A DNA stretch of 64,000 bases from Candidatus Shapirobacteria bacterium (GCA_041665485.1 JBAYIT010000001.1:8651-72650); one strand, 5' to 3'; positions 47,563 through 62,642 are shown, counted from the first letter of the stretch. The notes: generated from the sequence alone by a model not told the origin. A program made the numbers and translations.

Positions 47563-47574
47563 AACTAATTAATA

Positions 47575-48294: not shown

Positions 48295-48419
48295 ATATTT
48301 ATTAATTATTAATTCAACCCAATGCTAACTGCAACTTAGCACAAAGTCAAGGCTATGTCATGCCTATTTGCTAAGTAGAGCTTAGTGGAGTACAAAGGTT
48401 TTTATTTCCATACTTCGGT

Positions 48420-48635
48420 ATGAGAAGTAATGCCAAATTGTTGAAAGTTATCAGCAAAAGAATTAAGAATTGTCGCAATGAATTAGGTCTGACCCAGGAG
48501 GACTTGGCCGAGAAAGTTGGTGTGAGTCGGGTTTACATTGGTTACGTCGAGCAAGGACGCAACACTCCCTCGCTCGAGATCTTGGAAAAAATTGCCAAAG
48601 CCTTGAAAATTAATCTTTCCGGATTAATCACCTAA
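48420..48635 (+). CDS. XRE-family helix-turn-helix transcriptional regulator (Cro/CI-like)
   Basis: GLTQEDLAEKVGVSRVYIGYVEQGRNTPSLEILEKIAKAL is a canonical HTH_3. Confidence 0.7.
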   Translation: MRSNAKLLKVISKRIKNCRNELGLTQEDLAEKVGVSRVYIGYVEQGRNTPSLEILEKIAKALKINLSGLIT

Positions 48636-50196
48636 TCAAATTTACCCAATTACCCCGAGGATTAATTTGATGGAGCATTTCATGGTCCTCTCTATCAGCC
48701 CAATCTTCACCACGAATACCATTATTTCCCCGATTAGAAAAATTTACCCGAACCGCTATTGGACATCGAGATGTTAACCCTTTGGGAGGAGAAACAAAGA
48801 CATAGTTAACTAGCATAGAAAAGGCATCAACCAAATCATCGTACCTTTCTACTCCAAAGTTCAACAGTTGATCAATCAATTCACCCGAACCGTTCTTAGG
48901 AAAATAGACGTTTCCATTTTTAACGAAGTCACTAGCAATCCTTAGTCTGGTTGATTTATCCTGACCGTGAAGCTCAACTCCAATTGCAGGATAGCCAACC
49001 TTTTGTAAGTCTTGCAACATAAATGTCTGAGAAGCTACTTGTTCAACCAATATAGTACTTTTTCTTTTGGAGTTAACCGTGTTTGATAGTTCTTTAAGAA
49101 TCACCTTTACGTCTGGGTAATCTACTCTTTTGTTAAAAATTTTTGGGAGGATATAAAGAGACAAAAGATCTTTTGTTTTATAAATTCTGCCAACCAGAAT
49201 GGCTGTTTTATCAGCTTTTTCTTTTTCAGAAATAGCCGAATCAATCGAAATAATATAACCAACACAGTTGGCCTCTAGATGAGCCGGAAACACATCATAA
49301 TATCTTACCCATTCTTTTTTAATTATTTGATCTTCTGGTGGGAGGATAATTAACAAATATTCCCGATACCACGACGACTCTGATCCAACCGACATCTTTA
49401 ATTTATCAATTGCATCCATATCTGGAAATTTGTCTTTCCAAGATATATTTCGGTTACTGTCTAATAGTGGATAATTAAAAAACTTCCCACTAAGTGTGGT
49501 ATTTTCAATCATTGCTTTTAGTCTCATCAGTAAACAATCCTCGTGTAACAAATTGCCAACAACAATAAATTTCGTGTTGGTGTCACCGATGGGGAGTATC
49601 TCGCCTGTAAACCACTGAAAAGTTTTGTCTCGACTATCTCTAGTTTTGATACTATTCAAATCTTCAACGTCGTCACACACAACCAAGTCCGGCCGGTATT
49701 GACCATGTCTAATGCCTCGAATACTCTGCTCCGTTGACGCAATGGTGATTCTGGCATTGAAATTAGACAGAACGATTGATGTTGACCCCCACTCATCATT
49801 AACTTCTTGAAATGGGCCAATATCTTTTTTCAGTAATTCATTGGTTTCTAGCTCCTTTTTGATGTTCGCCAAATGAAGTCTGGCTTGGTTCTGGGTTTGG
49901 CTAACTATCAATACAAATTTTCTTTGTTGACAACCAATAATTGCCCAAATTGGATATGAAAGACTCATTAGTGTTGATTTACTAGAACCTCTAAAAGCCA
50001 CGAACACGGCCAATTTCAATCTTATATCTTCAGTAACAGAAAACATTTCGTTGTGAAATGGAGCAAATGGATGGCTTATATAGTGATTAAAGTAAATTGT
50101 AAAAAACCAAAAATGGCTGTTTCTAGCCAAAGTCTTCCGTACAGACCTATTTTTTGCAATTTGTAATTTTTCTGCTTCATTTAATACTTGTTTCAT
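48628..50196 (-). CDS. Phage terminase large subunit-like protein
   Basis: Walker-A-like FRGSSKST, Walker-B-like LVVCDDVED, C-terminal RNaseH-like nuclease region. Preceded by a small HTH protein. Confidence 0.55.
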   Translation of the reverse strand: MKQVLNEAEKLQIAKNRSVRKTLARNSHFWFFTIYFNHYISHPFAPFHNEMFSVTEDIRLKLAVFVAFRGSSKSTLMSLSYPIWAIIGCQQRKFVLIVSQTQNQARLHLANIKKELETNELLKKDIGPFQEVNDEWGSTSIVLSNFNARITIASTEQSIRGIRHGQYRPDLVVCDDVEDLNSIKTRDSRDKTFQWFTGEILPIGDTNTKFIVVGNLLHEDCLLMRLKAMIENTTLSGKFFNYPLLDSNRNISWKDKFPDMDAIDKLKMSVGSESSWYREYLLIILPPEDQIIKKEWVRYYDVFPAHLEANCVGYIISIDSAISEKEKADKTAILVGRIYKTKDLLSLYILPKIFNKRVDYPDVKVILKELSNTVNSKRKSTILVEQVASQTFMLQDLQKVGYPAIGVELHGQDKSTRLRIASDFVKNGNVYFPKNGSGELIDQLLNFGVERYDDLVDAFSMLVNYVFVSPPKGLTSRCPIAVRVNFSNRGNNGIRGEDWADREDHEMLHQINPRGNWVNLIR

Positions 50197-50609
50197 TTTT
50201 GCTCCTCCTTTTTTAAATTTTGTAAATTGTTTGGTAATACTGATGCTAGTTTTAGTGCTTTCATAACCAAAATATTTTGTTCGGGTGTTAGTTGCTCGTC
50301 TTCGTGTCCCAACTTGGCTGTTACTTCGATTTTGTTGGCATAAGCAGGGTGTCGATGATTAAGCCAATAAGCAATGGCTGAGAAATTTTTATCCTTTATG
50401 GACGAAATCAATTGCGACTCTGCCATTTCGTTAATTAAAGAGACGCCTTCACCAATAGCTATTTCTACCGTCTTAGCAAATTCCCGATCTTCATTTTTCC
50501 AACGATAGAAGGTTGCTCGGCCGATACCGATTTTTTCGCAGGCCACCTGAATGATAGGTGTTTTTTTAAGTTGCTCGATCAATAGTTGTTTATCATTATC
50601 AGTTTTCAT
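50193..50609 (-). CDS. Terminase small subunit-like HTH protein
   Basis: HTH IGIGRATFYRWKNED. Position immediately 5' of the terminase large subunit, with overlapping stop/start. Confidence 0.35.
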   Translation of the reverse strand: MKTDNDKQLLIEQLKKTPIIQVACEKIGIGRATFYRWKNEDREFAKTVEIAIGEGVSLINEMAESQLISSIKDKNFSAIAYWLNHRHPAYANKIEVTAKLGHEDEQLTPEQNILVMKALKLASVLPNNLQNLKKEEQK

Positions 50610-51337
50610 ACTTTTAATAACTTGTTATAACGGTCGACGATAATTTGGCAGTATTCTGGATCAATTTCGATTCCCAAGCATTTCCTTTTCGTCTGTTGAC
50701 AAGCAATGAGTGTTGACCCAGACCCCAGAAATGGGTCATAGACATAGTCACCAATTTGAGAGCTATTTAAGATCAAGTGTCGCAGAAGCGATATTGGCTT
50801 CATGGTGGGGTGAAGTGGACTTTTGTTAGGTTTTGGAAAAGCCAAAACACTCTTATCTTTGCTTTTAAAGAACTTGTGTGTCCCAAACCACCCATAAGCA
50901 ACAAGTTCGTGCATGGGTAGATAATCCATTCGTCCGATAACAGCATGGTTTTTTATCCAAATTAGAAGCTGACAAAATTTAAAACCTGAACCGTCAAGAG
51001 CATTCTTTAAAGCAAATATCATCTTGTCAGAGTTGAAGATATAGAAGCTATTTTTTGGAGCCAAATAGGGCTTCACTACCTCTAACCACAGCTGAGTAAA
51101 TTGTTTATATGATTCGTCAGTTTGTAGTTGATCGTTGGCAATAATCTTTCGCTTAATATTTGATTTCGAGAAGCCATCTTTACCCTCAACCAGTGCCACG
51201 GCGTACGGCGGATCTGAGAGTATTAGTGATACTTTTTTATCAACTAATAACTTTTCAATCGATATTTTATCGGTGGCATCACTACATAAAAATAAATGAT
51301 TGCCGATTGCAATTAAGTCTCCCTTTTTAATTGACAT
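50606..51337 (-). CDS. Beta-class DNA methyltransferase (N6-adenine or N4-cytosine), orphan
   Basis: Motif IV DPPY (ILSDPPYAV) N-terminal to motif I (DPFLGSGSTLIA), which is beta-class order. Confidence 0.8.
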   Translation of the reverse strand: MSIKKGDLIAIGNHLFLCSDATDKISIEKLLVDKKVSLILSDPPYAVALVEGKDGFSKSNIKRKIIANDQLQTDESYKQFTQLWLEVVKPYLAPKNSFYIFNSDKMIFALKNALDGSGFKFCQLLIWIKNHAVIGRMDYLPMHELVAYGWFGTHKFFKSKDKSVLAFPKPNKSPLHPTMKPISLLRHLILNSSQIGDYVYDPFLGSGSTLIACQQTKRKCLGIEIDPEYCQIIVDRYNKLLKV

Positions 51338-52604
51338 AAGTAACCTCCTTGCCCGTCAGTTTTGTAAAACGGGAAATAATTAAATCGCAAAAAATTGGCT
51401 CAATCTCCACCATCAAGCACTTTCGCTTTAACTGTTCGCAACTACACATGGTTGAGCCGGAACCGGCAAATAAATCTAGGACTGTGTCTCCAACTTTAGT
51501 ACAACGTCTTATCGCTTTTTCATGGAGTGTTGGACTTTTTTCAGTAGGATGACTATATTCGCTACCTGGCAATCTTTTGACTAACCAGATATTTAGCAAA
51601 TCTAAGATATCGTCTATGGTTCGATTGCCTGAGCCAATTTCTTTATTGAGAATTTCATTTAAATTTTTTGGGTTTTCAGAGATTGATGGTTTGCCTATAG
51701 TTCCATAAATACAAGCTTCATAAGATTTATTAAAAGCCACATTTGGTGTAGGAGAAAATCCGTTCTTAATCCATAAACAAACTCTCTTGTTTTCGATTCC
51801 GATTTCTTTGTATAGATCTTGGATCAAACCGATATGGCGTTCGTCATTCCATATAAATACATGGACATCAGGTTTGGAAATAGCCAGCCCATTTTCGATT
51901 ACCCTTTTTAAAAACTCGCGATATCCCAAATCGGTTTTATTGTCATCAGTTTTACCTCCATACTTTCCTTTACCACCAACACCTTTGTTGTAGTCGAGTC
52001 CAATATTAAAAGGTGGATCAAAATAGGCCATTGATACCATCTTTTCTGATGTTAATCTTTGAACAACCTTAAGATCCATGCTGTTTCCACAAACCAGCAA
52101 ATGTGGTCCGAGTTTGATGATATCCCCCAGTTTTGTCTTGGGAACTTTTATCTTCTCTATTTCCGCTTGAGTATCAAAATCGTCTTCATAAGTTTCCAAA
52201 TTTTCGTCCCAAATTTTAGATAAGTCGTTATTGTCGAAACCAATGTCCATCAATGTTTCTATGTCGAAGTTTTTGAGAAGTTCAAAATCCCAATCACCAA
52301 CTACCCGGTTCAATGTTAGATTTAGTTTTCTCTCTTTTTCGATATCAGAGATGTCAATAAAATTTACTGGAACTACCTTGTACCCCAGATCTTTAGCTAT
52401 CTTTAATCGAAAATGCCCGGCAATTACAACTCCATATCGAGACTTGTTTCCATTAGCTAAAATTGGTATCACAAAGCCATTTTCTCTAATGCTCTTTTTT
52501 AAATCAGAGATAGCTTTCTCGCTCCAATATCGTGGGTTATATTCCGAAGGTTTTAAATCTGTAACTTTTACCAGGACCGTTTTGATACTTGGTGTATTGA
52601 CCAT
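51327..52604 (-). CDS. ParB-like nuclease domain fused to beta-class DNA methyltransferase
   Basis: N-terminus KPSEYNPRYWSEKAISDLKKSIRENGFVIPIL is ParBc. Motif IV FDPPFNIG, then motif I DLFAGSGSTM. Confidence 0.8.
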   Translation of the reverse strand: MVNTPSIKTVLVKVTDLKPSEYNPRYWSEKAISDLKKSIRENGFVIPILANGNKSRYGVVIAGHFRLKIAKDLGYKVVPVNFIDISDIEKERKLNLTLNRVVGDWDFELLKNFDIETLMDIGFDNNDLSKIWDENLETYEDDFDTQAEIEKIKVPKTKLGDIIKLGPHLLVCGNSMDLKVVQRLTSEKMVSMAYFDPPFNIGLDYNKGVGGKGKYGGKTDDNKTDLGYREFLKRVIENGLAISKPDVHVFIWNDERHIGLIQDLYKEIGIENKRVCLWIKNGFSPTPNVAFNKSYEACIYGTIGKPSISENPKNLNEILNKEIGSGNRTIDDILDLLNIWLVKRLPGSEYSHPTEKSPTLHEKAIRRCTKVGDTVLDLFAGSGSTMCSCEQLKRKCLMVEIEPIFCDLIISRFTKLTGKEVTYVN

Positions 52605-52814
52605 AAAAAAAACTCCATAAAGTAATAATGCTCCCGGCCCTGCCTGGAGTGTATCTACTTTCGGAGTTTACAGGTTAAACACCTACGCTCTTGATTGAGT
52701 TAATATAATTTACCACATGTACCAGTTCCTTTCAATAGTGTTTCCCTTGATGTTTATTTGGTTGAAAAGTGTTAATAAATTTTATACAATATTGGTATCA
52801 ACTGGTAAGTAATT

Positions 52815-52988
52815 ATGGAAGAACTTTTGACATTAAATGAAACCGCTCAAATACTGAAAGTTCACCCAAACACTCTTCGATCGTGGGATAAAAAGGGGGT
52901 ATTAATTGCAATTCGGATCGGGGTAAAGAAAGCTAGAAGATACAAAAAAGAAGATATTGAAAAATTTATTAATAAGAAGAATAAATAA
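52815..52988 (+). CDS. Excisionase/AlpA-family helix-turn-helix DNA-binding protein (57 aa; not in supplied ORF track)
   Basis: Manual translation: MEELLTLNETAQILKVHPNTLRSWDKKGVLIAIRIGVKKARRYKKEDIEKFINKKNK. Fits the TIGR01764 excisionase-type HTH. Ends 2 nt before the PLD-SNF2 start. Confidence 0.55.
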   Translation: MEELLTLNETAQILKVHPNTLRSWDKKGVLIAIRIGVKKARRYKKEDIEKFINKKNK

Positions 52989-52990
52989 AC

Positions 52991-55900
52991 ATGTCATTAA
53001 TCGATAATAAAAACCAAACTTTACAAAATGCACTCAAAAATGCTTTAGTAACAGCCGACCGAATTGATATTGCGGTCGGATTTTTTTATTTCTCCGGATT
53101 TGAAGCACTGGCCGACGAGTTAAGAGATAAAAAAATACGTATTTTGGTTGGTTTGGAGGTTGATCCAAAGCTTATTTCGGAGATTTCTCAAAAAGCGAAG
53201 GATGGTGATGTTGATTTATCTAAATATCAAACCAGGGATTCAATTAATTCCAGAACAGTAAAAAAATTAAATTATGTTGATACTTTTGTGGGGTTTATGA
53301 ATGATAGTGACGTATTCGATTCAGATAAAGCTAACGAACTTTACGAACTTTATATTCAAAAAATAAACGACGGTTCTCTTGAGATTAGAAAAACTGTTGA
53401 TGATTACCACGGTAAATATTATGTAGTTCATAACAAAAAAGAAACATCTCAAAGTGGTGACTTCCCGGGTACTGTATTTTTTGGTTCCAGCAATCTTTCT
53501 TATCGAGGACTGAGTGGCCAGGGAGAATTAAATCGTTCCAGTCGAGAGAAAAATGAGTTTGATGAATTTACTGGTCAATTTGAAGAGATGTGGAGCGATT
53601 CAAAATCAATTTCAATAGCAGACGCAAACACTAAAGACCAATTTATCGAAGCGATTAAACCCCGTATTTGGAAGTACTGCACACCTCTCCCTTATTACCT
53701 ATATATTCGAGTACTGCACGAGATATTTTATCAACAGGAAATTAATACACTCAAAACTCCCAAAGCCACCACTAATGGTCTTTACATTGATCTGGAATAT
53801 CAGATTGATGCCATTAAAATGGTTATCGACAAACTCAACAAATATGATGGCGCCATTCTTGCCGATGTTGTCGGTCTTGGAAAAAGCATTATTGCTTCTG
53901 CTGTAGCTAGGAACATGGACGCAAAGACGGTGATAATTGCTCCTCCACACCTTATGTCCCAATGGGAAGAATATAAAGAACAATTTGGCATCAGGGGGTC
54001 GAAAGTATTCAGTTCGGGAAAGATTCAAGAAATTTATGATCGATATCATGAGGCTAAAGAACCCGTATTTTTCATTCTTGATGAAGCTCATCGATATCGT
54101 AATGAAGACACGAATGACTACAAGTTATTACACCAAGTTTGTCGTAGTCATCCAGAAAATAAAGTTTTATTGTTAACTGCCACCCCTTTCAATAATGATC
54201 CAAAAGATGTTTTTGCATTAATAAAGTTGTTTCAAACTCCTGGACAATCAACCATTCGCTCAGTCGACAATTTAAGTCTCCGGTATCGAGACCTTATCCA
54301 ACGATATAAAAAATTACGCAGAGACATGACAAAAGGAGCTATCCAGGAAGCGGTTGATAAAGAAACGGCCGAAATTGCGGCGGAACAGAGAAGATTAATT
54401 GAAACAATTATTATCCGAAGATCGCGACTTGATCTTAACTACATCACTCGTTATCGGGAGGACTTACAACGTCAAAATATTTCCTTTGCTGAAGTACGAG
54501 GTCCAGATCCACTTGAATACGATCTGGGAGAACTTTTTGAACCTTATATGAAAACTTTGGATTTAATCATTAAACCAGATAATGAAGGATTCCTTGGTGC
54601 CCGATATAAGCCTACATCGGAGACCTATATGGATGAAGAGAATCGCAAGAAATTTATCGATAAATATAAAAGTGAGTTTGACGATATTGAGGATCTTCGG
54701 ATTGCTCAGTCAAACTTGGCAAAATTTATGAGACGACTCTTGGTTATGCGTTTTGAAAGCTCAAAAGATGCTTTCCGTTCTACATTGGAAAAAATGATTG
54801 AGTCTAATAAACTTATTGAACATTGGTGGAGTGAGCTGGGAATTGTACCAATTATGAAAAAAGGGCAACTTCCCGATCCGCAGGACTATGACTTAGAAGA
54901 TGGTGAATCTGATTCGCTTACTGAGGAATTGGAATTATTGCGAAATAAAAAAGGTTTCCTGGAAATAAGCAAGGACATGTTAAATCCTCAATTTATTGAA
55001 GATGTACAACACGATACAAAACTATTACAGTCAATTCATGACGATTGGTATTCAAATCCCCAATTTGCTGACCTAGATCCGAAACTAGATAACATTATTG
55101 AAAAAATTGAGGAATTATTGTCTGAAAATAAAGATAGAAAAATTGTTATCTTCTCTAGCTATAAAGACACGGTCGATTATTTGTATAAGATAATGGTCGA
55201 TCGTGGATTTAGCCGCGTTACTAAATATTCAGCTTCGGAGGGAACAGACGCAAACAAAAAAATAATTCGTCAAAACTTTGATGCTTCAATTCAGGAAGCA
55301 CAACAAACAAATGACTTTGATGTTTTAATAGCCACAGACGCATTGAGCGAAGGATTTAATCTTCATAGGGCTGGAATTGTTATTAACTATGACATACCCT
55401 ACAACCCCACTAGAGTTATCCAAAGAGTTGGACGCATTAATCGTATAAATAAGAAGGTTTTTGAGTTCCTAAATATCTACAATTGTTTTCCAACAGCAAT
55501 CGGCGAAGAAGAAACTAGAGTAAAAAGTATTTCTACTCTCAAAATGAAACTAATCAATGCGGTTGTGGGAAGTGATACAAAAACTCTAACCAAAGATGAA
55601 GAATTGGTTAGTTATTTTAAAGATGAATTTGACAAAGCCCAAAAAGAGGACGAAAGGTTGTCTTGGGATACAGTACATAGAGAAAATTTTGAAAGAGCAT
55701 TAAAAGACAGTGATCTTATGAAAAAAGTCCTGGAGCTTCCTAGAAGGAGTCGTATAAAAAGGATTGGTCGTAAAAACTCCGGTACAATAGTATTTGGGAA
55801 GAAGGGGCAGAACTCCGTGTTTACTTATGGTATTACTACTGACGACATTAGAGTTACTTCAGCCGAGGAATCTTTGCCAGTTTTCGAAGCAAAACCAGAT

Positions 55901-56275
55901 GAAAAAAGTGAATTAGTTGATAAGGAGTTTACTAATATTTTTAATTTGGCTAAAGAAAAACTTTTCGCCAAACACGAGTTGCCCCAAATAAAGGGTAGAA
56001 GGGCAACTGCTATTAATATTTTAAAAGTGATTGCTGACAAAATGCCAATTGCTAGAGATTATTGCGAAGACATTATTTCTATTATCAAGACCCTTGATGA
56101 TATTAGCGATGGGTCTCTAAAAGATATTTCTCAATTGAATGCAAACAAGGTTGATGAGTCATACAAAAAATTGTTAAACATTATTCCGGAAGTGTATGTG
56201 AGAAATATTTTAAATCGATCTAAACATACTGACGAGGCACAAGAATTACTGTTGTTTGCGGAACAATTACTATGA
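52991..56275 (+). CDS. PLD-family (HKD) nuclease domain fused to SNF2/DEAH-box superfamily-2 helicase
   Basis: N-terminus has HxK...GSxN (VHNKKETSQSGDFPGTVFFGSSNLS). Helicase motifs I LADVVGLGKS, II ILDEAHRYRN, III LLTATPFNN, V LIATDALSEGFNL, VI QRVGRINRI. Confidence 0.85.
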   Translation: MSLIDNKNQTLQNALKNALVTADRIDIAVGFFYFSGFEALADELRDKKIRILVGLEVDPKLISEISQKAKDGDVDLSKYQTRDSINSRTVKKLNYVDTFVGFMNDSDVFDSDKANELYELYIQKINDGSLEIRKTVDDYHGKYYVVHNKKETSQSGDFPGTVFFGSSNLSYRGLSGQGELNRSSREKNEFDEFTGQFEEMWSDSKSISIADANTKDQFIEAIKPRIWKYCTPLPYYLYIRVLHEIFYQQEINTLKTPKATTNGLYIDLEYQIDAIKMVIDKLNKYDGAILADVVGLGKSIIASAVARNMDAKTVIIAPPHLMSQWEEYKEQFGIRGSKVFSSGKIQEIYDRYHEAKEPVFFILDEAHRYRNEDTNDYKLLHQVCRSHPENKVLLLTATPFNNDPKDVFALIKLFQTPGQSTIRSVDNLSLRYRDLIQRYKKLRRDMTKGAIQEAVDKETAEIAAEQRRLIETIIIRRSRLDLNYITRYREDLQRQNISFAEVRGPDPLEYDLGELFEPYMKTLDLIIKPDNEGFLGARYKPTSETYMDEENRKKFIDKYKSEFDDIEDLRIAQSNLAKFMRRLLVMRFESSKDAFRSTLEKMIESNKLIEHWWSELGIVPIMKKGQLPDPQDYDLEDGESDSLTEELELLRNKKGFLEISKDMLNPQFIEDVQHDTKLLQSIHDDWYSNPQFADLDPKLDNIIEKIEELLSENKDRKIVIFSSYKDTVDYLYKIMVDRGFSRVTKYSASEGTDANKKIIRQNFDASIQEAQQTNDFDVLIATDALSEGFNLHRAGIVINYDIPYNPTRVIQRVGRINRINKKVFEFLNIYNCFPTAIGEEETRVKSISTLKMKLINAVVGSDTKTLTKDEELVSYFKDEFDKAQKEDERLSWDTVHRENFERALKDSDLMKKVLELPRRSRIKRIGRKNSGTIVFGKKGQNSVFTYGITTDDIRVTSAEESLPVFEAKPDEKSELVDKEFTNIFNLAKEKLFAKHELPQIKGRRATAINILKVIADKMPIARDYCEDIISIIKTLDDISDGSLKDISQLNANKVDESYKKLLNIIPEVYVRNILNRSKHTDEAQELLLFAEQLL

Positions 56276-59200
56276 TGCAATTAAATAATGATTACCAACG
56301 TGATGATTTTCTAAAATTTCTCGAAGAAGATTTTTTAACTGACTTCAAAAGAGATATTAGATCTGTAAATACTAGTAGTCTCTCGTCTATTCAAAAAGCT
56401 AATTACTTGGGTGAAAGTAGGGATTTGGATCTTCAGGTTTTTGAGTTCTTATTTGAAGGCTCTCCAAACAAACGCATCGCTTTAACAAAAGATGCTTTTT
56501 CAGTTATGCGATCAAGCGCTATTTATAATGCATTGGCCGTCTTCCATTCTCCAAACAAGAAAGACTGGAGATTCTCCTTGATGACTGCTACCCCAGAACC
56601 GACTCAAAAAGGTAAGGTGTCACTTTCATATTCAAATCCTAGGCGCTTGTCTTTCTTTTTGGGTCCTAATGCTAAAACAAACACTCCCACAAAATTTCTC
56701 ATAAACAAGGGGAAAATTATTGACCTTGAAGACTTGAAAAAAAGATTTTCTATAGAAGTTGTTAATAGGGAGTTCTATAAAGAAATATCCCAAACATTCA
56801 CAAAATTAGTTAATGGATTACTTAAACTACCATCAACCCAAGATAAAAGCCAAGCTAATATTGATTTTGCAGTCCGGTTAATTGGTCGTGTTATTTTTTG
56901 TTGGTTTTTACGTGAGAAAAAAAGTAATACTGGAATTGCGCTAATGCCAAAAGACCTTTTATCACTCGAAGCGGTTAAGGAAAACGATGATTATTATCAC
57001 AAAATCCTTGAGCCAATATTCTTTGAAGTTCTTAACAAACCAATCAAACTAAGAAAAGAAGATTTTTCTAAAGAACCTTTCTCTTCTGTTCCTTATCTTA
57101 ATGGAGGCTTATTTTCCCCTCAAGTAGATGACTACTACAAGCGAACGAATGGAGATTTTCAGTCGCAACACCACAACACACTAATTGTCCCAGATAGTTG
57201 GATTAAAAGCTTCTATGAAATTCTTGAAACTTACAACTTTACAATTGATGAGAACACAAGTTATGACGAAGAGCTTTCCATTGACCCGGAAATGTTGGGT
57301 AGAATTTTCGAAAATCTTTTGGCGGAAATTAACCCAGAAACAGGGGAATCGGCCAGAAAAAGCACAGGGAGTTTCTATACCCCCAGAATTATCGTTAATT
57401 ATATGGTTGATGAGAGTCTATTACTTTATCTTAAGGAAAATACTGGGATACATGAAGAAAAGTTGCGGACAATTATTAGTTATGACCTTGATGATGATTT
57501 GGAAAATCCCGTAACTACAGATGAAAAAGAAAAAATAATCGATGCACTAGAAAAAGTTAAAATTCTTGACCCAGCCTGTGGTTCTGGAGCTTTTCCAATC
57601 GGGGCATTACAAAAAATTGTTTTTATTCTTCAACAAACCGATCCAGACGGGCAAATGTGGTTCAAAAAGCAGATAAAAAACACTTCTCCGGAAATAAAAA
57701 GGGTTGTAGAACGTGAGTTTGCTCATAAAAATTTTGATTATATTAGAAAGCTTGGAATCATTAGAGAAAACATATACGGAATTGATATTCAACCAATTGC
57801 TACAGAAATCTCACGACTTCGTTGCTTCCTAACTCTTGTAGTCGACGAAGGCATCCAAGAAGACCTAGAAAATAGAGGTATAGAACCACTACCAAACCTG
57901 GATTTTAAATTTGTTACAGCTAACACGCTGATCGGTCTTCCTGGGTCACAAACAATTAATCAAATGGGATTGTTTGAAGATGATGCAGGAATTAAGGAGC
58001 TAAAAGAGCTTCGAGATATGTTTTTTAATGCCTCAGGTACAGAGAGAGAACAGCTTAAACTTGAATTTGTCCAATCACAAAATCACATGTTTCAACGGTT
58101 AGTAAGTGAAGGAAGAAGGGGTCATGCGGACTTAACTACAAAATTAACTACTTGGGATCCGTTTAGCCACAAGACATCCTCATGGTTTGACTCAGAATGG
58201 ATGTTTGGAATTAAGGATGGTTTTAATATTGTCATTGGGAACCCTCCATATGTCCAATTACAAACAAACGGGGGATACCTTGCAAACCTGTACGAAAATC
58301 AAAGTTATAGTACGTTCTGTAGATCAGGAGATATCTATTCTCTATTTTATGAAAAAGGTATTCAGTTGATTACCAACAAAGGTTGTTTGTGTTTTATATC
58401 TTCTAATAAATGGATGAGAACATCATATGGTTCAAAATTAAGAAGCTTTCTAAGTAAGCTAAACATGCTAAATCTTATTGATTTTGCAGGATTTCAAGTG
58501 TTCGAAACAGCCGCTGTAGATACCACCATAGCCCTAGTGCAAAGATCAGAAAATCTAAATAAACTTGAAGCTGCACATTTCAAGGACAATTATGTCCAAG
58601 GTGATGATATTAGGGACTATTTTAATAAAAATAAGGTTGATTTAAAAAACTTAGATAGCGAACCATGGTTTATCGGCGGATATGAAACAATTAGTCTCAA
58701 ATCCAAGATTGAACATGAAGGAGTACCTATTAAACGATGGCCGGAATTATCAATTAACTATGGAATAAAAACTGGGGCCAATGATGTTTTTATAATCAAC
58801 GAAGAATTTAGGAATAAATTAATTAATTTGGAACCACAATCAGCCAGTATAATGAAACCTCTTCTTCGTGGATTACATACAAAAAACTATTACACTGAGT
58901 GGGAAAATGACTACTTACTTTACGTTCCATGGCATTTTCCATTAGAAGGTGCCATTAAAGGTTCCTCGTTAAAAGCAGAAGAAACTTTTAAAGTGCAATA
59001 TCCTCGATTATATGAATATTTTCATAGTCGGAAAGAACGACTACTTAAAAGAAACAAGGCTGAGACAGGGATAAGATATGAATGGTATGCGCTACAAAGG
59101 AGTGGGTCAAGCTATAAATCTGATTTTCTCAAACCAAAAGTGGTTTGGATGAATATGAATAGAGGGTGGAAATTTGCATATTCAGAAAGAGATTTTTATG

Positions 59201-59553
59201 TCGATATGACTTTGAACTTTTTAGCATCTGAAAAATACGCAAAATTTATGACAGGCGTTTTGTCAAGTCCTGTACACAAATGGTACTTTTTACAAACCGG
59301 AAGAATTTTTGATAACGGCGGCTTTATGACAAAGGTAGACAGCGTGAGTAATTTCCCCGTACCAACGATTAATGAAGACAATAAATTAATTTTTACTGCA
59401 GTTGAAAAACTAATAGAAAAAATACTTGACATTAAGTCACATAATAAAGAAGCAGATACAATAAAAATTGAAAACGAATTGAACGAACAAGTATATCTAC
59501 TTTATAAACTTACACCGGATGAAATTGAAATTATTAAAGAGGCAACAAAATAA
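56272..59553 (+). CDS. Large gamma-class N6-adenine DNA methyltransferase with TaqI_C-type specificity domain (PglX/Eco57I/MmeI-like architecture)
   Basis: NGGLF helical-domain motif, motif X GSFYTP, motif I ILDPACGSGAFP, motif IV VIGNPPYVQ, C-terminal GIKTGANDVFII (TaqI_C). ATGA start/stop overlap with the upstream gene. Confidence 0.85.
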   Translation: MMQLNNDYQRDDFLKFLEEDFLTDFKRDIRSVNTSSLSSIQKANYLGESRDLDLQVFEFLFEGSPNKRIALTKDAFSVMRSSAIYNALAVFHSPNKKDWRFSLMTATPEPTQKGKVSLSYSNPRRLSFFLGPNAKTNTPTKFLINKGKIIDLEDLKKRFSIEVVNREFYKEISQTFTKLVNGLLKLPSTQDKSQANIDFAVRLIGRVIFCWFLREKKSNTGIALMPKDLLSLEAVKENDDYYHKILEPIFFEVLNKPIKLRKEDFSKEPFSSVPYLNGGLFSPQVDDYYKRTNGDFQSQHHNTLIVPDSWIKSFYEILETYNFTIDENTSYDEELSIDPEMLGRIFENLLAEINPETGESARKSTGSFYTPRIIVNYMVDESLLLYLKENTGIHEEKLRTIISYDLDDDLENPVTTDEKEKIIDALEKVKILDPACGSGAFPIGALQKIVFILQQTDPDGQMWFKKQIKNTSPEIKRVVEREFAHKNFDYIRKLGIIRENIYGIDIQPIATEISRLRCFLTLVVDEGIQEDLENRGIEPLPNLDFKFVTANTLIGLPGSQTINQMGLFEDDAGIKELKELRDMFFNASGTEREQLKLEFVQSQNHMFQRLVSEGRRGHADLTTKLTTWDPFSHKTSSWFDSEWMFGIKDGFNIVIGNPPYVQLQTNGGYLANLYENQSYSTFCRSGDIYSLFYEKGIQLITNKGCLCFISSNKWMRTSYGSKLRSFLSKLNMLNLIDFAGFQVFETAAVDTTIALVQRSENLNKLEAAHFKDNYVQGDDIRDYFNKNKVDLKNLDSEPWFIGGYETISLKSKIEHEGVPIKRWPELSINYGIKTGANDVFIINEEFRNKLINLEPQSASIMKPLLRGLHTKNYYTEWENDYLLYVPWHFPLEGAIKGSSLKAEETFKVQYPRLYEYFHSRKERLLKRNKAETGIRYEWYALQRSGSSYKSDFLKPKVVWMNMNRGWKFAYSERDFYVDMTLNFLASEKYAKFMTGVLSSPVHKWYFLQTGRIFDNGGFMTKVDSVSNFPVPTINEDNKLIFTAVEKLIEKILDIKSHNKEADTIKIENELNEQVYLLYKLTPDEIEIIKEATK

Positions 59554-59556
59554 AAT

Positions 59557-60261
59557 ATGGCTAGAGACACATTTGTTTTGAACATAGATCTTGAGAGTGG
59601 AGGTAGAAGCAGTGCTCAGATAAGCGAATATCCAGATAAGTGTCCAACGTGCCACGAAGGTGGACAGCCAAAGTTTGTTTTGGCTCATTCATTAGGTGCA
59701 GCTTGGGATTATGACGAAGTTATTGAAGCCATTTTTAAATGTCCTATAAATAAGTGTAAAAGATATTATATTGGCTATTATTACAAACCTAGTAGAACAG
59801 GCGATATCTTCTTTCTTAAAGAAACGCTTGCTCCGCAGTTTTGGAAACCAATATACTTTTCAGACGAAATCAAGAATATTAGTTCACGATTTGAAAGAAT
59901 TTACAATCAAGCCGCTATTGCTGAAAACTTTGGTTTGGATGAAATTGCCGGTGGTGGTTACCGAAAGTCATTAGAATTTTTAGTAAAGGATTACCTTATT
60001 TACCTTAAATTAAAGACTAAAACCCAAATAGCCGAATTAAAGCTTAGTAAAGCTGTTGCCTTAATTAATGACAATCGTATCCAAGTTTGTGCTAAAAGAG
60101 CTGCCTGGTTAGGTAATGATGAAATTCATTTCAATCGTGTCTGGGAAAACAAAGATATTCAAAACCTTAAGGAATTAATAAAACTTTCTACTAATTTAAT
60201 GGAAAGTGATGTAATTGCTAAAAAATACGAGAAAGAAATGCCTGAAAAAAAGAAAAATTAA
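59557..60261 (+). CDS. Zinc-ribbon protein with possible HEPN/DUF4145-like C-terminal domain
   Basis: CPTC...CPINKC ribbon. C-terminal ...CAKRAAWLGNDEIHFN weakly resembles DUF4145. Starts 3 nt after the MTase stop. Confidence 0.4.
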   Translation: MARDTFVLNIDLESGGRSSAQISEYPDKCPTCHEGGQPKFVLAHSLGAAWDYDEVIEAIFKCPINKCKRYYIGYYYKPSRTGDIFFLKETLAPQFWKPIYFSDEIKNISSRFERIYNQAAIAENFGLDEIAGGGYRKSLEFLVKDYLIYLKLKTKTQIAELKLSKAVALINDNRIQVCAKRAAWLGNDEIHFNRVWENKDIQNLKELIKLSTNLMESDVIAKKYEKEMPEKKKN

Positions 60262-60265
60262 TTTT

Positions 60266-60499
60266 ATGAATAAATATCAACAAAGAATCAGAAACTTATA
60301 CATTTTTGACGCTAATAAACCTTTTCGTCTCTCCCGGTCAAAAATCGACATGTTTTTGGAGTGTCCCCGTTGTTTTTATCTGGATAGAAGACTGGGGCTT
60401 GGGAGACCAAGCACGCCGAGATGGTCACTAAACACAGTTGTGGATGAACTGCTTAAAATAGAATTTGACTTACTTCGAAAAAAATATGTTTATGCTTAA
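60266..60499 (+). pseudogene. N-terminal fragment of RecB-family (COG2887/PD-(D/E)xK) nuclease, truncated
   Basis: LSRSKIDMFLECPRCFYLDRRLGL matches the conserved N-terminal SPSRxxxFxxCPxxYxxR motif of these ~260-aa nucleases. The ORF stops after ~77 aa and the next ORF is in another frame. Confidence 0.35.
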
Positions 60500-61286
60500 A
60501 ACCTATTTTAAACAACTCATTTCATCGTTAGATTTACTTGGTGGTGCTTTTTCTGGATTAATTTTATTAATCACAGCACTTACCTACTTGTCTTATAATT
60601 TTTCAAAAGCCCCAGTGCTGATTAAGTTAGTTGTTCTGTTCATGGTCTTAGTTATTGTAATTTTTGTTGTTAGGCAGTTCAGGAAAATAAAAGACGTATT
60701 AGACGAGAAAGTTCTAAACAAGGAAATTCAATTTAAAGTTGATAGGGATAAAAAAATCAATAAATTTGACCCTTCAACAATCCCCACAACTTCAGACATT
60801 AAGAAGTGGGTAAAGTTATTGTCTATTAAATCAAGAAAATGGGCGAGTGACGCTAAGATATCGAGTTACACGTTCTACTACACATTAAAGTGGCATAAAT
60901 CTTATGGAGTTAATCACACTTTTGGTATTAGTTTTAATTCTGATGAAAGAGGTGAGAACTTAACTCTTTATATAGAAAGTAACATGGAAATCCTCACAGA
61001 ATCTATTGGTGCTAATAAACCAAAGATATCAATTGACTATGGAGAAGCCCCTTTTTATTTAAAAGTACATAATTGGAGAAAAGCTGTGATTTTCTTGTAT
61101 AGAAGGATGGAAAATAAAGTTGAAGATAGTTTCGAAATAAAAGTATCCAACAGTATGGATAGAAAAATATTCCTTTATTTTAATTATTCTTATGGACCCA
61201 AAAAAATACATTCCAGTTTTCATGGAGAGTACGATGGCAAGATACTAACTCTATATAGGACAGGTGAAAAAATTAATTTAAAATAA
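60465..61286 (+). CDS. Hypothetical membrane protein (2 N-terminal TM)
   Basis: ORF with hydrophobic N-terminus. Confidence 0.4.
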   Translation: MTYFEKNMFMLKTYFKQLISSLDLLGGAFSGLILLITALTYLSYNFSKAPVLIKLVVLFMVLVIVIFVVRQFRKIKDVLDEKVLNKEIQFKVDRDKKINKFDPSTIPTTSDIKKWVKLLSIKSRKWASDAKISSYTFYYTLKWHKSYGVNHTFGISFNSDERGENLTLYIESNMEILTESIGANKPKISIDYGEAPFYLKVHNWRKAVIFLYRRMENKVEDSFEIKVSNSMDRKIFLYFNYSYGPKKIHSSFHGEYDGKILTLYRTGEKINLK

Positions 61287-61288
61287 AT

Positions 61289-61600
61289 ATGCAAGATATT
61301 GATCAAAAAATTAAAAGCGTTCTTCAAGATCTCCGAGAAGCCCACGCAGAGTCGGAAAAGCATTATGCTAAACAAATTATTCCAGGCGAACCCACAAAGC
61401 CACATGATATATACGATATGGCTTTGGCATTTGATACCGAAAAGAAAATACATTTGGAACTTAATCTTGCTAGAAGTGAAAAGTTTCCAGATCGATTCTC
61501 AGTAGAGGAGGTTGAAAGCATAAAAAGGGAAATTAACGAACTTTCTTTTAACATTAAGGCTTGGAGAAATAGAAAATTCCCCTGTCAATTTAAAGAGTAA
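61289..61600 (+). CDS. Small hypothetical protein
   Basis: ORF 2 nt after the previous gene. Confidence 0.35.
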   Translation: MQDIDQKIKSVLQDLREAHAESEKHYAKQIIPGEPTKPHDIYDMALAFDTEKKIHLELNLARSEKFPDRFSVEEVESIKREINELSFNIKAWRNRKFPCQFKE

Positions 61601-61604
61601 AAGT

Positions 61605-62624
61605 ATGACTGACAATATTAAACCAATTATTGAAGACATTAAAGCTCGTGGACTTGCTGCAATCGAAGATGTTGTTGCCAGGAAGGAATCTGAAATGTTT
61701 TTTATCGATTTTAAACTAACACAAAGAGATGATTACTCAAGACAAAGGACTTTATTCGAGTCTGATAAAAAGAATTTAGCAAAAGCAATTTCAGGCTTTG
61801 GAAATTCGGAAGGAGGTTTAATTATATGGGGAGTTGACGCTTCCGGAAGTTCTGATGACTATGCAAAATCAATTAAGTTAATTAAAAATATAGATAATTT
61901 TAAATCTCTCCTTGAGTCGTTTGTCTCTTTATTAACAGTCCCAGCTCATAAAAACGTTGAAAGTTTTGTGGTTAAAAAATCAAATAAGGATACTAATGGT
62001 ATTGCTGTGACTGTTATTCCAAAAGGCAACGAACGCCCTTATCAATGTATTGGTGATTATAAATATTACATGAGAGCCGGAGACTCATTTGTACCTGTCC
62101 CTCATGGGGTCTTACAAGGTATGTTTGGTCAAACTCCTCAACCAAATGTGTTTTGGATGTTTAATATTAGTAAAATTCCTAAAATTGATGAAAGTAAGGC
62201 TATGACTTGGCAAGCGGGACTGATGGCCGTTAATGGAGGCCTTGGAATAGGTGAAGACATTTATGGTTTCGCTCGAGTATGGACTCCAGGTGATAACTCA
62301 GAAATTGGTATCGAACTAATTGATCAGGTGAATTACGATTTTTTTAAAGCATATGGTATTGAATTCAGTTTTATGTCAAAGAAGGATTTTAGGCTTGGAT
62401 GTGAACAAAGGTCACAAATGATGGTTTTAAATTTTTGGCTACGTCCTCCATTTACTAAAGAACTTTATATAGATCTATTAATTGGAGGAAGAAATCAGCA
62501 AATTTATAGAAGGCTTATTAAAAGAAAACCAAAAGAGTTAACTTCTATTTACAAAAAATGCCTTACTGATCCATCAAGTGAACGCATTGAAGAAATATGG
62601 GGAGGCGAAGGAAAGATAGTCTAG
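61605..62624 (+). CDS. AlbA_2 (Schlafen-like, 'divergent AAA') domain protein
   Basis: FESDKKNLAKAISGFGNSEGGLIIWGVD matches the PF04326 core motif. Confidence 0.6.
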   Translation: MTDNIKPIIEDIKARGLAAIEDVVARKESEMFFIDFKLTQRDDYSRQRTLFESDKKNLAKAISGFGNSEGGLIIWGVDASGSSDDYAKSIKLIKNIDNFKSLLESFVSLLTVPAHKNVESFVVKKSNKDTNGIAVTVIPKGNERPYQCIGDYKYYMRAGDSFVPVPHGVLQGMFGQTPQPNVFWMFNISKIPKIDESKAMTWQAGLMAVNGGLGIGEDIYGFARVWTPGDNSEIGIELIDQVNYDFFKAYGIEFSFMSKKDFRLGCEQRSQMMVLNFWLRPPFTKELYIDLLIGGRNQQIYRRLIKRKPKELTSIYKKCLTDPSSERIEEIWGGEGKIV

Positions 62625-62642
62625 TTAGTGACATTCAGTGAT

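What the first reader, a model, noticed from the sequence alone, without database searches (positions are those of the whole stretch)
52815..59553. Candidate new defence module: excisionase-type HTH + PLD-nuclease/SNF2-helicase fusion, translationally coupled to a PglX/Eco57I-like N6-adenine MTase
Seen in sequence: three co-directional genes with 2-nt and -4-nt (ATGA overlap) spacing. Gene 2 carries one HKD motif (HxK...GSxN) N-terminal to a full set of SNF2/DEAH helicase motifs. Gene 3 has FYTP, FxGxG and NPPY motifs plus a TaqI_C target-recognition domain (GIKTGANDVFII) and an NGGLF helical domain, as in BREX PglX and type IIG/IIL enzymes. Established knowledge: an SNF2 helicase (DrmD), an adenine MTase (DrmMI) and a PLD nuclease (DrmC) co-occur in class-1 DISARM, but always with the DrmA/DrmB (DUF1998) core, which is absent here. 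Type ISP and type III R-M systems also pair a helicase-nuclease with an adenine MTase, but use PD-(D/E)xK or Mrr nucleases and SF2 Res helicases, not PLD-SNF2. Inference: the fusion of DrmC-like and DrmD-like parts with a stand-alone DrmMI/PglX-like MTase in a two- or three-gene operon on a mobile island looks like a streamlined, possibly undescribed modification-dependent restriction system.
Basis: partly seen in the sequence, partly recalled or inferred. Interest (0 to 1): 0.85.

Follow-up and report, generated by a model that had tools for sequence, protein, structure and literature searches.

The report
Two-gene helicase-nuclease plus methylase restriction system
A mobile island in a tiny uncultured (CPR) bacterium carries a compact, widely conserved two-gene DNA-defence module, a motor-driven DNA cutter paired with a sequence-reading DNA methylase; it is built from known parts, but I found no paper that names or tests it as a system.

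Summary
Three co-directional genes sit at 52815-59553 with a 2-nt gap and an ATGA overlap. They encode a 57-aa HTH_17 protein, a 1094-aa fusion of one PLD/HKD nuclease domain to a Swi2/Snf2 motor, and a 1093-aa gamma-class N6-adenine methylase of MmeI/PglX/Eco57I architecture with a TaqI_C target-recognition domain (TRD).

All catalytic residues are invariant across 115 family representatives. The helicase-then-methylase pair recurs in 34 of 35 related loci, from CPR bacteria to Actinomycetota and Bacteroidota. No third gene is conserved. DrmA/DrmB, DUF499, DUF3780 and PglZ are absent, including in the 10 kb beyond the window.

The methylase N-terminal domain co-varies with the helicase (rho 0.95). 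The TRD is replaced freely (rho -0.12, 30% identity or less).

Best reading: a minimal ATP-dependent restriction-modification system. The methylase marks self DNA and supplies specificity, and the PLD-SNF2 protein is the translocating nuclease.

It is not DISARM, BREX, MANTIS, type ISP or type IIG. It is a variant of known kinds: MANTIS MtsD has the same effector architecture, YeeA/B/C was predicted in 2009, and the pair was noted in passing in 2023. The HTH gene is an optional accessory.

The parts
52762..52790 (+). Promoter-like site (TTGAAA-17-TACAAT) 25 nt upstream of the HTH gene; candidate operon promoter
   Evidence: Consensus scan, 10/12 matches. Weak evidence only: fewer such sites were found than in shuffles. 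No terminator-like site on the + strand between 52815 and 59553.
52815..52988 (+). 57-aa HTH_17/MerR-type DNA-binding protein; optional accessory, probably a transcriptional controller of the operon
   Evidence: Pfam HTH_17 E 6e-12; PADLOC mad1 E 6e-13; NCBIfam 'excise' 25.2 bits, below its 28.8 cutoff. Present immediately upstream of the helicase gene in L003, L004, L026-L028 and L030-L032, and absent from the other loci.
52991..56275 (+). 1094-aa PLD/HKD nuclease + Swi2/Snf2 translocase fusion; the restriction (R) subunit
53408..53500 (+). Single HKD catalytic motif (H140-x-K142 ... G165-S-S-N168)
   Evidence: Coordinates. H140, K142, S166 and N168 are invariant in 115/115 representatives. 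One motif per chain implies that a dimer is needed to build one active site, as in MtsD, SauUSI and BfiI.
53873..55444 (+). SF2/Snf2 ATPase core: motif I GLGKS (53873-53887), motif II DEAH (54080-54091), motif III TATP (54176-54190), motif VI QRVGRINR (55421-55444)
   Evidence: all key residues are 115/115.
56272..59553 (+). 1093-aa single-chain N6-adenine MTase with its own TRD; the modification + specificity (M+S) subunit
   Evidence: Pfam Eco57I E 2e-37, TaqI_C, MmeI_Mtase, MmeI_hel. PADLOC type IIG models up to 407 bits, against PglX 72 and DrmMI 66. AF2 model pLDDT 72.9. Foldseek: CamA, M.BseCI and M.TaqI for MTase+TRD; alignments of about 1000-1100 columns to PglX/BrxX and MmeI.
56272..57306 (+). 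MTase N-terminal region (aa 1-345): alpha-beta-beta-beta-alpha-beta domain (aa 1-130) plus helical spacer; proposed docking/communication module for the helicase-nuclease
   Evidence: Secondary structure. Candidate nuclease residues D53, E58 and K73 are conserved in only 84-89% of 121 homologs (substituted by G, I/V, T), whereas R100, S102, S121, N122 and R125 are invariant. Similarity of this region tracks that of the helicase across 32 loci, Spearman 0.95.
57307..58551 (+). Gamma-class MTase catalytic core: FYTP (57373-57384), motif I DPACGSGAF (57568-57594), motif IV NPPY (58240-58251)
   Evidence: D433-G439 and N657-P659 are invariant and Y660 is nearly invariant (>=90%) in the 35-sequence alignment.
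58552..59553 (+). Hypervariable target-recognition domain (TaqI_C type) plus C-terminal helices
   Evidence: 30% identity or less in nearly every locus, even where the helicase is 91% identical. No correlation with helicase similarity, Spearman -0.12.

Best explanation
This is a minimal, self-contained ATP-dependent restriction-modification system of two proteins, with an optional small HTH controller.

The methylase (56272-59553) is a single-chain enzyme of the MmeI/PglX/Eco57I type that has no working nuclease of its own. Through its exchangeable TRD it recognises a short DNA sequence and N6-methylates an adenine in host DNA. It therefore supplies both self-marking and target specificity.

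The upstream protein (52991-56275) is the restriction subunit. Two chains pair their single HKD motifs into one PLD active site. The Swi2/Snf2 motors use ATP to move along double-stranded DNA.

When the methylase sits on an unmethylated site in incoming DNA, its conserved N-terminal domain recruits or licenses the helicase-nuclease. That protein then translocates and cuts, probably most efficiently when two sites or complexes communicate.

Shown here: the domain identities, intact catalytic residues, strict gene pairing, absence of any other conserved partner, TRD swapping, and location in defence or mobile islands.

Inferred: the physical interaction through the N-terminal domain, dimerisation, one-strand methylation, and the trigger for cleavage.
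For: 1. Both enzymatic parts are intact and under strong constraint. HKD H/K/S/N and helicase motifs I, II, III and VI are 115/115. MTase motifs I and IV are invariant or nearly so.
2. The order helicase-then-MTase is kept in 34 of 35 loci with sequence available, down to 28% identity. These span CPR phyla, Actinomycetota (Acidithrix ferrooxidans), Izemoplasmatales, Chitinophagaceae and a Parabacteroides plasmid. The 4-nt overlap is kept in 10 loci.
3. No Pfam family occurs in more than 2 of 12 neighbourhoods (118 ORFs). DUF1998, DUF499, DUF3780 and PglZ were not seen there or in the 10 kb beyond the window.
4. The TRD is decoupled from the rest (rho -0.12), while the MTase N-terminal domain tracks the helicase (rho 0.95). 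Conserved R subunit with swapped specificity module is the pattern of R-M systems.
5. The MTase lacks a conserved PD-(D/E)xK triad, so the HKD domain is the only credible nuclease.
6. Neighbours are often other defence genes: OLD/Gabija-like ATPase, UvrD-like helicase, SMODS cyclase, KAP NTPase, GmrSD, Schlafen, TIR.
7. There are precedents. MANTIS restricts phages and plasmids using MtsD, a PLD + SF2 dimer with one active site, directed by its MTase. YeeA/YeeB-type loci defend Vibrio crassostreae. Morgan et al. predicted this logic for nuclease-less MmeI homologs.
Against: - There is no experimental datum for this family: no methylation motif and no restriction phenotype.
- The B. subtilis relative of the concept (DnmA-YeeB-YeeC) showed no restriction of plasmids or three phages.
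- In MANTIS the MTase cannot act without two extra proteins (MtsA/MtsB), and MtsD nuclease activity has not been reconstituted. A two-protein system may therefore need host factors.
- D53, E58 and K73 of the MTase N-terminal domain are 84-89% conserved, so a non-canonical nuclease there is not excluded.
- The correlation between N-terminal domain and helicase is also what shared descent alone would give. Only the decoupling of the TRD is really diagnostic.
- Many of the IMG/VR loci are near-duplicates, so the 34/35 count overstates independent observations.
Confidence: 0.6

Rival explanations
1. The methylase is itself a complete type IIG/IIL restriction-modification enzyme whose N-terminal restriction-endonuclease-like domain cuts DNA. 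The PLD-SNF2 protein would be an auxiliary or back-up effector rather than the main nuclease.
For: The best PADLOC matches of gene 3 are type IIG models (up to 407 bits). The N-terminal 130 residues fold as alpha-beta-beta-beta-alpha-beta, like PD-(D/E)xK enzymes. D53, E58 and K73 are present in 84-89% of homologs. Full-length structural alignment to MmeI.
Against: No canonical D...(D/E)xK spacing: E58 is followed by F-L, and K73 lies in a predicted helix. About 11-16% of full-length homologs replace each residue with G, I/V or T, while other N-terminal residues are 100% invariant. The type IIG model matches reported cover mainly aa 424-1090. MmeI homologs with a helicase neighbour were shown to lack endonuclease activity on their own. 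The invariance of the HKD residues would be unexplained for a dispensable back-up.
Confidence: 0.1
2. The PLD-SNF2 protein is an autonomous modification-dependent (type IV, SauUSI-like) or structure-sensing nuclease. The adjacent methylase would be an unrelated or merely co-mobilised orphan enzyme.
Against: Gene 2 has no recognisable modified-base reader (no SRA, EVE or other TRD). Its motor is Swi2/Snf2- or RapA-like rather than SauUSI-like. The MTase is kept downstream in 34/35 loci, with translational overlap. The MTase N-terminal domain co-varies with the helicase.
Confidence: 0.08
3. It is a BREX-like exclusion system that blocks phage replication without cutting DNA, or one that needs further unlinked host or island factors (for example the tightly following 234-aa DNA-binding gene or the Schlafen gene).
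For: The methylase has PglX-like architecture. MANTIS and BREX need extra ATPases for methylation. The gene at 59557-60261 starts 3 nt after the methylase stop and has a homolog near the pair in L033. Schlafen genes recur in 3 loci.
Against: No PglZ, BrxC or DUF499 in any neighbourhood. No accessory gene is present in more than a few loci. The invariant HKD catalytic residues argue for real phosphodiester cleavage.
Confidence: 0.12
4. The module mainly serves the mobile element that carries it, as an addiction or anti-competitor device or to protect and process the element's own DNA, rather than defending the host against phages.
For: In the window and in L004, L029, L032, L033 and L045 the pair rides with the same serine recombinase, TerS/TerL and ParB-MTase gene set. 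IMG/VR classes these contigs as viral. The island also carries two more orphan MTases.
Against: Most loci lack that element and instead show defence-island or chromosomal contexts. R-M systems commonly act both as defence and as addiction modules, so this is not exclusive of the main explanation.
Confidence: 0.08

Closest known systems
MANTIS / Gao_RL / BREX-related (BR) type-2 system (MtsA-D)
   Same: The effector MtsD has the same order of parts: N-terminal HKD/PLD nuclease, then an SF2 helicase-like ATPase. It is a dimer with one PLD site. An N6-adenine MTase directs both modification and restriction. An optional small repressor gene (MtsR) is present. Sources. Gene 2 matches the PADLOC 'HKD+Snf2' model over its full length (E 5e-37) and NCBIfam 'phospholipD_antiphage' at 133 bits, far below the 1100-bit cutoff.
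   Different: There is no DUF499 AAA+ ATPase (MtsA) and no DUF3780 protein (MtsB) here. The MTase is gamma-class with a C-terminal TaqI_C TRD and MmeI/PglX architecture, not the alpha-class MtsC with a central TRD that must be loaded by MtsA/B. Gene 2 is only a distant homolog of MtsD-type models.
DnmA(YeeA)-YeeB-YeeC type-I-like loci (MmeI homologs without nuclease)
   Same: A nuclease-less single-chain MmeI-like MTase-TRD sits next to an SF2 helicase and a nuclease. These were predicted in 2009 to give specificity plus single-strand modification while the partners cut DNA. yeeAB protects V. crassostreae from phages. A Rhodococcus plasmid pairs an HKD-SNF2 protein with a true MmeI-family MTase.
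   Different: There the gene order is MTase first, and the nuclease is a separate GIY-YIG/T5orf172 protein (YeeC). Here one PLD domain is fused to the helicase N-terminus, the helicase comes first, and the MTase is Eco57I/TaqI_C-type. The B. subtilis locus is inactive in the assays tried.
Class 1 DISARM (DrmA, DrmB, DrmC, DrmD, DrmMI) and ARMADA (ArmA-ArmB-YprA)
   Same: All three contain a Swi2/Snf2 (RapA/BrxHII-like) helicase with a PglX-like adenine MTase, and DISARM also has a PLD nuclease.
   Different: The defining YprA-type helicase and DUF1998 partner (DrmA/DrmB, ArmC) are absent. The PLD domain is fused to the SNF2 protein instead of being a separate DrmC. DrmD and DrmMI models score far below family cutoffs (137 vs 610 bits).
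Type ISP (LlaGI/LlaBIII) and type III R-M enzymes
   Same: The functional logic is the same: a helicase-like motor plus a nuclease plus a gamma-class or single-TRD adenine MTase that recognises asymmetric sites, with ATP-dependent communication between sites (PMC2790908 abstract).
   Different: Type ISP is one polypeptide with an Mrr/PD-(D/E)xK nuclease. Type III uses a beta-class Mod and a Res subunit with a C-terminal PD-(D/E)xK. Here there are two polypeptides, a PLD nuclease and a Swi2/Snf2 motor.
SauUSI and CglI/NgoAVII (PLD nuclease coupled to an SF2 ATPase)
   Same: ATP-dependent restriction by a PLD nuclease joined to, or complexed with, a helicase-like motor. Some family members carry the RE_NgoFVII PLD signature.

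Membership tests
Class 1 DISARM | DrmA (YprA-type helicase) and DrmB (DUF1998) core genes in the locus | tested here: not met
   Pfam scans of all ORFs from 41.7 to 62.6 kb, of the 10 kb beyond the window (L023 gene table) and of 118 neighbour ORFs in 12 related loci. No DUF1998 was found. UvrD-type helicases appear in 2 loci only.
Class 1 DISARM | SNF2 helicase DrmD, adenine MTase DrmMI, PLD nuclease DrmC | tested here: inconclusive
   The domains are present but as distant homologs. NCBIfam DISARM_DrmD scores 137 bits against a 610 cutoff. PADLOC DrmD E 2e-34, DrmMI E 5e-19. The PLD is fused, not separate.
MANTIS / BR type-2 | DUF499 AAA+ ATPase (MtsA) and DUF3780 protein (MtsB) | tested here: not met
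   Neither family was found in the window ORFs scanned (41.7-62.6 kb), the downstream 10 kb or the 12 neighbourhoods.
MANTIS / BR type-2 | N-terminal HKD nuclease fused to SF2/Swi2-Snf2 helicase as effector | tested here: met
   Pfam PLDc_2 + SNF2 + Helicase_C. PADLOC 'HKD+Snf2' matches over aa 2-972. Catalytic residues are invariant.
MANTIS / BR type-2 | Alpha-class MTase with central TRD (MtsC) | tested here: not met
   The motif order FYTP (X), then motif I, then NPPY (IV), then a C-terminal TaqI_C TRD is gamma-class. The nearest structures are CamA, M.TaqI, PglX and MmeI. MtsC is described as alpha-class.
BREX (types 1-6) | PglZ phosphatase and BrxC/PglY ATPase alongside PglX | tested here: not met
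   No PglZ or BrxC family in any scan. PglX models score 91 bits against a 500 cutoff.
Type IIG / IIL (MmeI, Eco57I) | Active PD-(D/E)xK nuclease domain in the same polypeptide as the MTase | tested here: not met
   No nuclease family hit in aa 1-170. There is no canonical motif. The candidate residues are substituted in 11-16% of 121 homologs. The fold is endonuclease-like, so a non-canonical activity is not strictly excluded.
Type IIG / IIL (MmeI, Eco57I) | Helical spacer + gamma-class N6A MTase + single TRD in one chain | tested here: met
   Pfam MmeI_hel/DUF7814, Eco57I, MmeI_Mtase, TaqI_C. Foldseek gives full-length alignment to MmeI 5hr4 and PglX.
Type ISP | Single polypeptide: Mrr-type nuclease, helicase, MTase, TRD | tested here: not met
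   Two separate ORFs with a stop codon and overlap. The nuclease is PLD, not Mrr.
Type III R-M | Beta-class Mod plus Res with C-terminal PD-(D/E)xK | tested here: not met
   The MTase is gamma-class. ResIII matches only the generic helicase N-lobe. The nuclease is an N-terminal PLD.
DnmA-YeeB-YeeC type-I-like system | Nuclease-less MmeI-like MTase adjacent to an SF2 helicase | tested here: met
   the definition is taken.
DnmA-YeeB-YeeC type-I-like system | Separate GIY-YIG/T5orf172 nuclease (YeeC) | tested here: not met
   No such family in the window ORFs scanned (41.7-62.6 kb) or in the neighbourhoods. The nuclease here is a fused PLD domain.
Functional R-M system (any type) | Site-specific methylation that protects from cognate restriction | not testable with these tools
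   This needs a methylome and plaque or transformation assays.

The most novel reading that the evidence does not exclude
The pair would be a distinct, still unnamed type of ATP-dependent restriction-modification system. A nuclease-less MmeI/PglX-like methylase acts as a combined M+S subunit and directly licenses a dimeric PLD-Swi2/Snf2 translocase, with no AAA+ loader, no YprA helicase and no PglZ. On this reading it is the minimal working core of the 'SNF2 helicase + PglX-like methylase' module embedded in DISARM class 1, ARMADA, BREX type 3 and, by analogy, MANTIS. In CPR bacteria it is spread by small terminase-bearing integrative elements.
Probability: 0.5. Interest if true: 0.6.

Novelty: new variant of a known kind. 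Interest (0 to 1): 0.5.

Why it matters
How PglX-like methylases tell a helicase or nuclease that a site is unmodified is unresolved for BREX, DISARM, ARMADA and MANTIS. All of those need four to six proteins and have resisted reconstitution.

A two-protein version with intact catalytic sites offers a much simpler experimental handle on that coupling. It has a clearly swappable specificity domain and hundreds of natural variants: 959 clusters (50%-identity clustering) with E <= 1e-30.

It also adds to the sparse picture of defence in CPR/Patescibacteria, and of the small mobile elements that move such systems between them.

The swappable TRD on a conserved scaffold could interest enzyme engineers, as the MmeI family did.

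Tried and rejected
- Attachment-site repeats: I compared the tRNA-Ser end (44.15-44.65 kb) with the far end of the island in L023. Only a 15-nt chance match was found, so the island limits (about 44.4 to 65.2 kb) rest on gene content and on GC and GC-skew shifts.
- Programmed-inversion TRD cassettes or shufflon-like repeats, as reported for relatives: no significant direct or inverted repeats in 52.6-62.7 kb.
- Sequence search of the methylase against PDB chains: no hit. A profile search with the helicase alignment found only generic SF2/Snf2 motors, not SauUSI or PLD nucleases.
- Phage genome collection: no full-length relative.
- DUF4391 literature: nothing useful.
- COG co-occurrence search: nothing useful.
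- HTH_17 as an excisionase of the island: rejected as the main reading. It accompanies the pair in loci without a recombinase nearby and is missing where the recombinase abuts the pair.
- PADLOC model 'C3a139 HKD+Snf2': I could not establish which system it belongs to. That it models the Gao_RL/MANTIS effector is my guess only.

Full report
**What is in the sequence.** The three ORFs exist exactly as reported: 52815-52988 (57 aa), 52991-56275 (1094 aa) and 56272-59553 (1093 aa), all on the + strand. There is a 2-nt gap between genes 1 and 2 (TAA-AC-ATG) and an ATGA overlap between genes 2 and 3. A promoter-like hexamer pair lies 25 nt upstream of gene 1, and no terminator-like site interrupts the three genes.

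Pfam gives these assignments:
- Gene 1: HTH_17/MerR.
- Gene 2: PLDc_2 (aa 23-201), SNF2-related/ResIII (269-482) and Helicase_C (703-820).
- Gene 3: Eco57I methylase (499-744), TaqI_C (863-1030) and an MmeI-type helical spacer (about 197-284).

**Are the catalytic parts intact?** I aligned 114 full-length cluster representatives at 31-51% identity with the query. The following are each conserved 115/115:
- HKD residues H140, K142, S166, N168.
- Walker A K298.
- DEAH residues D364, E365, H367.
- Motif III T398, P399.
- Motif VI Q811, R812, R815, R818.

The textbook aspartate of 'HKD' is not conserved. There is one HKD motif per chain.

The model of gene 3 (pLDDT 72.9) matches CamA, M.BseCI and M.TaqI over the methylase plus TRD. 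It aligns over about 1000-1100 columns with PglX/BrxX and MmeI.

**Does the methylase carry its own nuclease?** Its first 130 residues fold as alpha-beta-beta-beta-alpha-beta, reminiscent of restriction endonucleases. No nuclease family matches this region, and there is no canonical D...(D/E)xK. The only candidate residues (D53, E58, K73) are replaced by G, I/V or T in 11-16% of 121 full-length homologs. By contrast R100, S102, S121, N122 and R125 are invariant. I read this domain as a non-catalytic module. A non-canonical nuclease is not strictly excluded.

**Source and setting.** Gene 3 is 100% identical to an NCBI protein of a Candidatus Shapirobacteria MAG on a 411-kb contig. Homologs of gene 2 come mostly from CPR/Patescibacteria.

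The genes lie in a region of about 21 kb that begins after tRNA-Ser (44277-44364). This region has lower GC and loses the strong positive GC skew of the flanking chromosome. It encodes:
- a large serine recombinase;
- an HTH_3 protein;
- terminase large and small subunits;
- two N6/N4 methylases, one fused to ParB-N;
- the three genes of interest;
- a phrog_1305 DNA-binding protein;
- a Schlafen/AlbA_2 protein;
- a zinc-ribbon protein.

Beyond the window it continues with an ImmA/HTH pair, followed by housekeeping genes. No DrmA/DrmB, DUF499, DUF3780 or PglZ occurs there.

**Conservation of the pair.**
- A scan of species-representative genomes gave 15 loci. In all 11 with downstream sequence, a homolog of gene 3 follows the gene 2 homolog, with the same 4-nt overlap in 10 of them.
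- A Parabacteroides plasmid has the pair at 40% identity.
- IMG/VR gave 24 further loci at 28-75% identity. In 22 of them the methylase lies downstream. One is cut by the contig end. One has only an upstream fragment.
- Some IMG/VR loci are near-duplicates, so these counts overstate independent observations.
- The family is large: 959 clusters (50%-identity clustering) with E <= 1e-30.
- Nothing else is conserved. Among 118 neighbouring ORFs from 12 loci, no Pfam family occurs in more than two loci.
- Neighbours are often other defence genes: OLD-type ATPase, UvrD-like helicase, SMODS cyclase, KAP NTPase, GmrSD, Mrr, Schlafen, TIR. Others belong to mobile elements.

**Pattern of variation.** I compared similarity to the query across 32 loci.

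| Region of methylase | Spearman rho vs helicase |
|---|---|
| N-terminal region (aa 1-345) | 0.95 |
| Catalytic core | 0.86 |
| TRD (aa 761-1093) | -0.12 |

The TRD stays at 30% identity or less in nearly every locus, even where the helicase is 91% identical. Shared descent alone would explain the first two correlations. The decoupled, freely replaced TRD is the informative part. It is the signature of a specificity module being exchanged on a conserved restriction scaffold.

**The HTH gene.** It lies immediately upstream of the helicase gene in the window and in L003, L004, L026-L028 and L030-L032. It is absent from the other loci, including close relatives L001 and L002. It is found with the pair where no recombinase is nearby. 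It is missing in L029, L033 and L045, where the recombinase abuts the pair. That fits a controller of the operon better than an excisionase. It is an accessory, not a core part.

**Mechanism proposed.** The methylase reads a short sequence through its TRD and N6-methylates host DNA. On unmethylated sites its N-terminal module recruits or licenses the PLD-Swi2/Snf2 protein. That protein dimerises to form one PLD site, translocates with ATP and cleaves.

The steps have different standing:
- Shown here: domain identities, intact sites, obligatory pairing, lack of other partners, TRD exchange, and defence or mobile context.
- Inferred by analogy: dimerisation and a single active site (MtsD, SauUSI, BfiI), and MTase-directed restriction and site communication (MANTIS, type ISP/III).
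- Inferred from covariation only: interaction through the N-terminal domain.
- Open: methylation of one strand. TaqI_C-type enzymes can also read palindromes.

**Comparison with what is known.**
- *DISARM class 1 or ARMADA:* not a member. The YprA/DUF1998 core is absent, and DrmD/DrmMI models score far below cutoffs.
- *BREX:* not a member. There is no PglZ or BrxC.
- *Type ISP or type III:* not a member. This system has two chains, a PLD nuclease and a gamma-class methylase.
- *Type IIG/IIL:* not a member in the strict sense, because no conserved nuclease motif is present.
- *BR type-2/MANTIS:* its effector has the same architecture as MtsD. In MANTIS an HKD/PLD + SF2 dimer is directed by an adenine methylase (PMC12839542; bioRxiv 10.64898/2026.09.23.753747). 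MANTIS, however, needs a DUF499 AAA+ loader and a DUF3780 protein, and it uses an alpha-class methylase.
- *YeeA/YeeB/YeeC:* conceptually the closest. These are MmeI homologs without a nuclease motif, flanked by a helicase and a GIY-YIG protein. Morgan et al. proposed in 2009 that they form type-I-like systems using single-strand modification. That locus is silent in B. subtilis, but yeeAB protects Vibrio crassostreae.
- *Milman et al. 2023:* their table lists Cj0031-like type IIG genes with an adjacent CDS carrying PLD and SNF domains. The adjacency has therefore been seen, without analysis.
- *Wider modular theme:* more distant HKD-helicases (about 25% identity) pair with other methylases. 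Examples are a true MmeI-family enzyme in Rhodococcus, and a DUF4391 + Mod + Res set in Lactococcus and Citrobacter.

**Verdict.** The system is real, intact and widespread, and it is neither DISARM nor any other named system. I found no paper that names or tests it. Its parts and logic are now well precedented, so I class it as a new variant of a known kind. Interest is moderate: its value is as a two-protein model for how PglX-like methylases couple to motor nucleases.

Noticed in passing
window 44277-64000 and beyond (L023 to about position 13900, equivalent to about 65.2 kb): An integrated element of about 21 kb lies next to tRNA-Ser. It carries a large serine recombinase (44998-46476, -), an HTH_3 gene, TerL (48628-50196, -), TerS (50193-50609, -), two methylases and an ImmA/HTH pair at the far end. 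No recognisable capsid, portal or tail genes were found. The same recombinase/TerS/TerL/ParB-MTase set recurs with the defence pair, in different orders, in L004, L029, L032, L033 and L045. IMG/VR calls such contigs viral. It looks like a satellite-like or degraded prophage family of CPR bacteria.
   Followed up: partly
window 60215-60499 (homology over about 60266-60484): This is the N-terminal remnant (about 73 aa, 58-73% identical) of a Cas4/RecB-like PD-(D/E)xK gene with a Cys cluster. The gene is intact (248-255 aa) just downstream of the pair in L001 (18415-19161) and L008 (16585-17352). Here it is truncated and overlapped by other ORFs.
   Followed up: partly
window 61605-62624; L004 16466-17314; L016 6430-7974: Schlafen/AlbA_2-domain genes recur close to the helicase-methylase pair in three otherwise different loci. 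Schlafen RNases are reported as common auxiliary effectors of BREX-related systems (PMC12839542). They may be a back-up effector here.
   Followed up: partly
window 59557-60261: A 234-aa gene starts 3 nt after the methylase stop codon. It has an N-terminal Cys-rich part and matches phrog_1305 'DNA binding protein' (E 2e-31), with no Pfam hit. A 39%-identical homolog lies 1.7 kb upstream of the pair in L033. Whether it works with the system is unknown.
   Followed up: partly
window 50606-52604 (- strand): Two tandem N6_N4 DNA methylase genes are transcribed divergently from the defence operon. The second is fused to a ParB N-terminal domain. These are typical phage or mobile-element orphan methylases, probably anti-restriction cargo of the island.
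   Followed up: no
window 62644-64000 (continues to about 64287 by the L023 gene table): A 547-aa ORF runs off the end of the window. It has several CxxC zinc-ribbon pairs and matches no Pfam or PHROG family. Its function is unknown.
   Followed up: no
window 1-44000 versus 44000-62000: GC skew is strongly positive (0.2-0.4 per 2-kb window) across the first 44 kb and collapses to about 0 inside the island. GC content drops from about 0.40 to 0.32-0.37.
   Followed up: no
window 43520-44230 (- strand): A RIO-type protein kinase gene (Pfam RIO1, E 2e-41) lies next to the tRNA-Ser. This family is mainly archaeal and eukaryotic, so it is an unusual find in a bacterial genome.
   Followed up: no
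L019 (Lactococcus plasmid) and L020 (Citrobacter plasmid): A distant clade of HKD-helicases (about 25% identity) is followed by a DUF4391 gene, a site-specific methylase and a DEAD/DEAH (Res-like) helicase. It is preceded by an HTH or WYL regulator. I found no paper describing this multi-gene arrangement.
   Followed up: no
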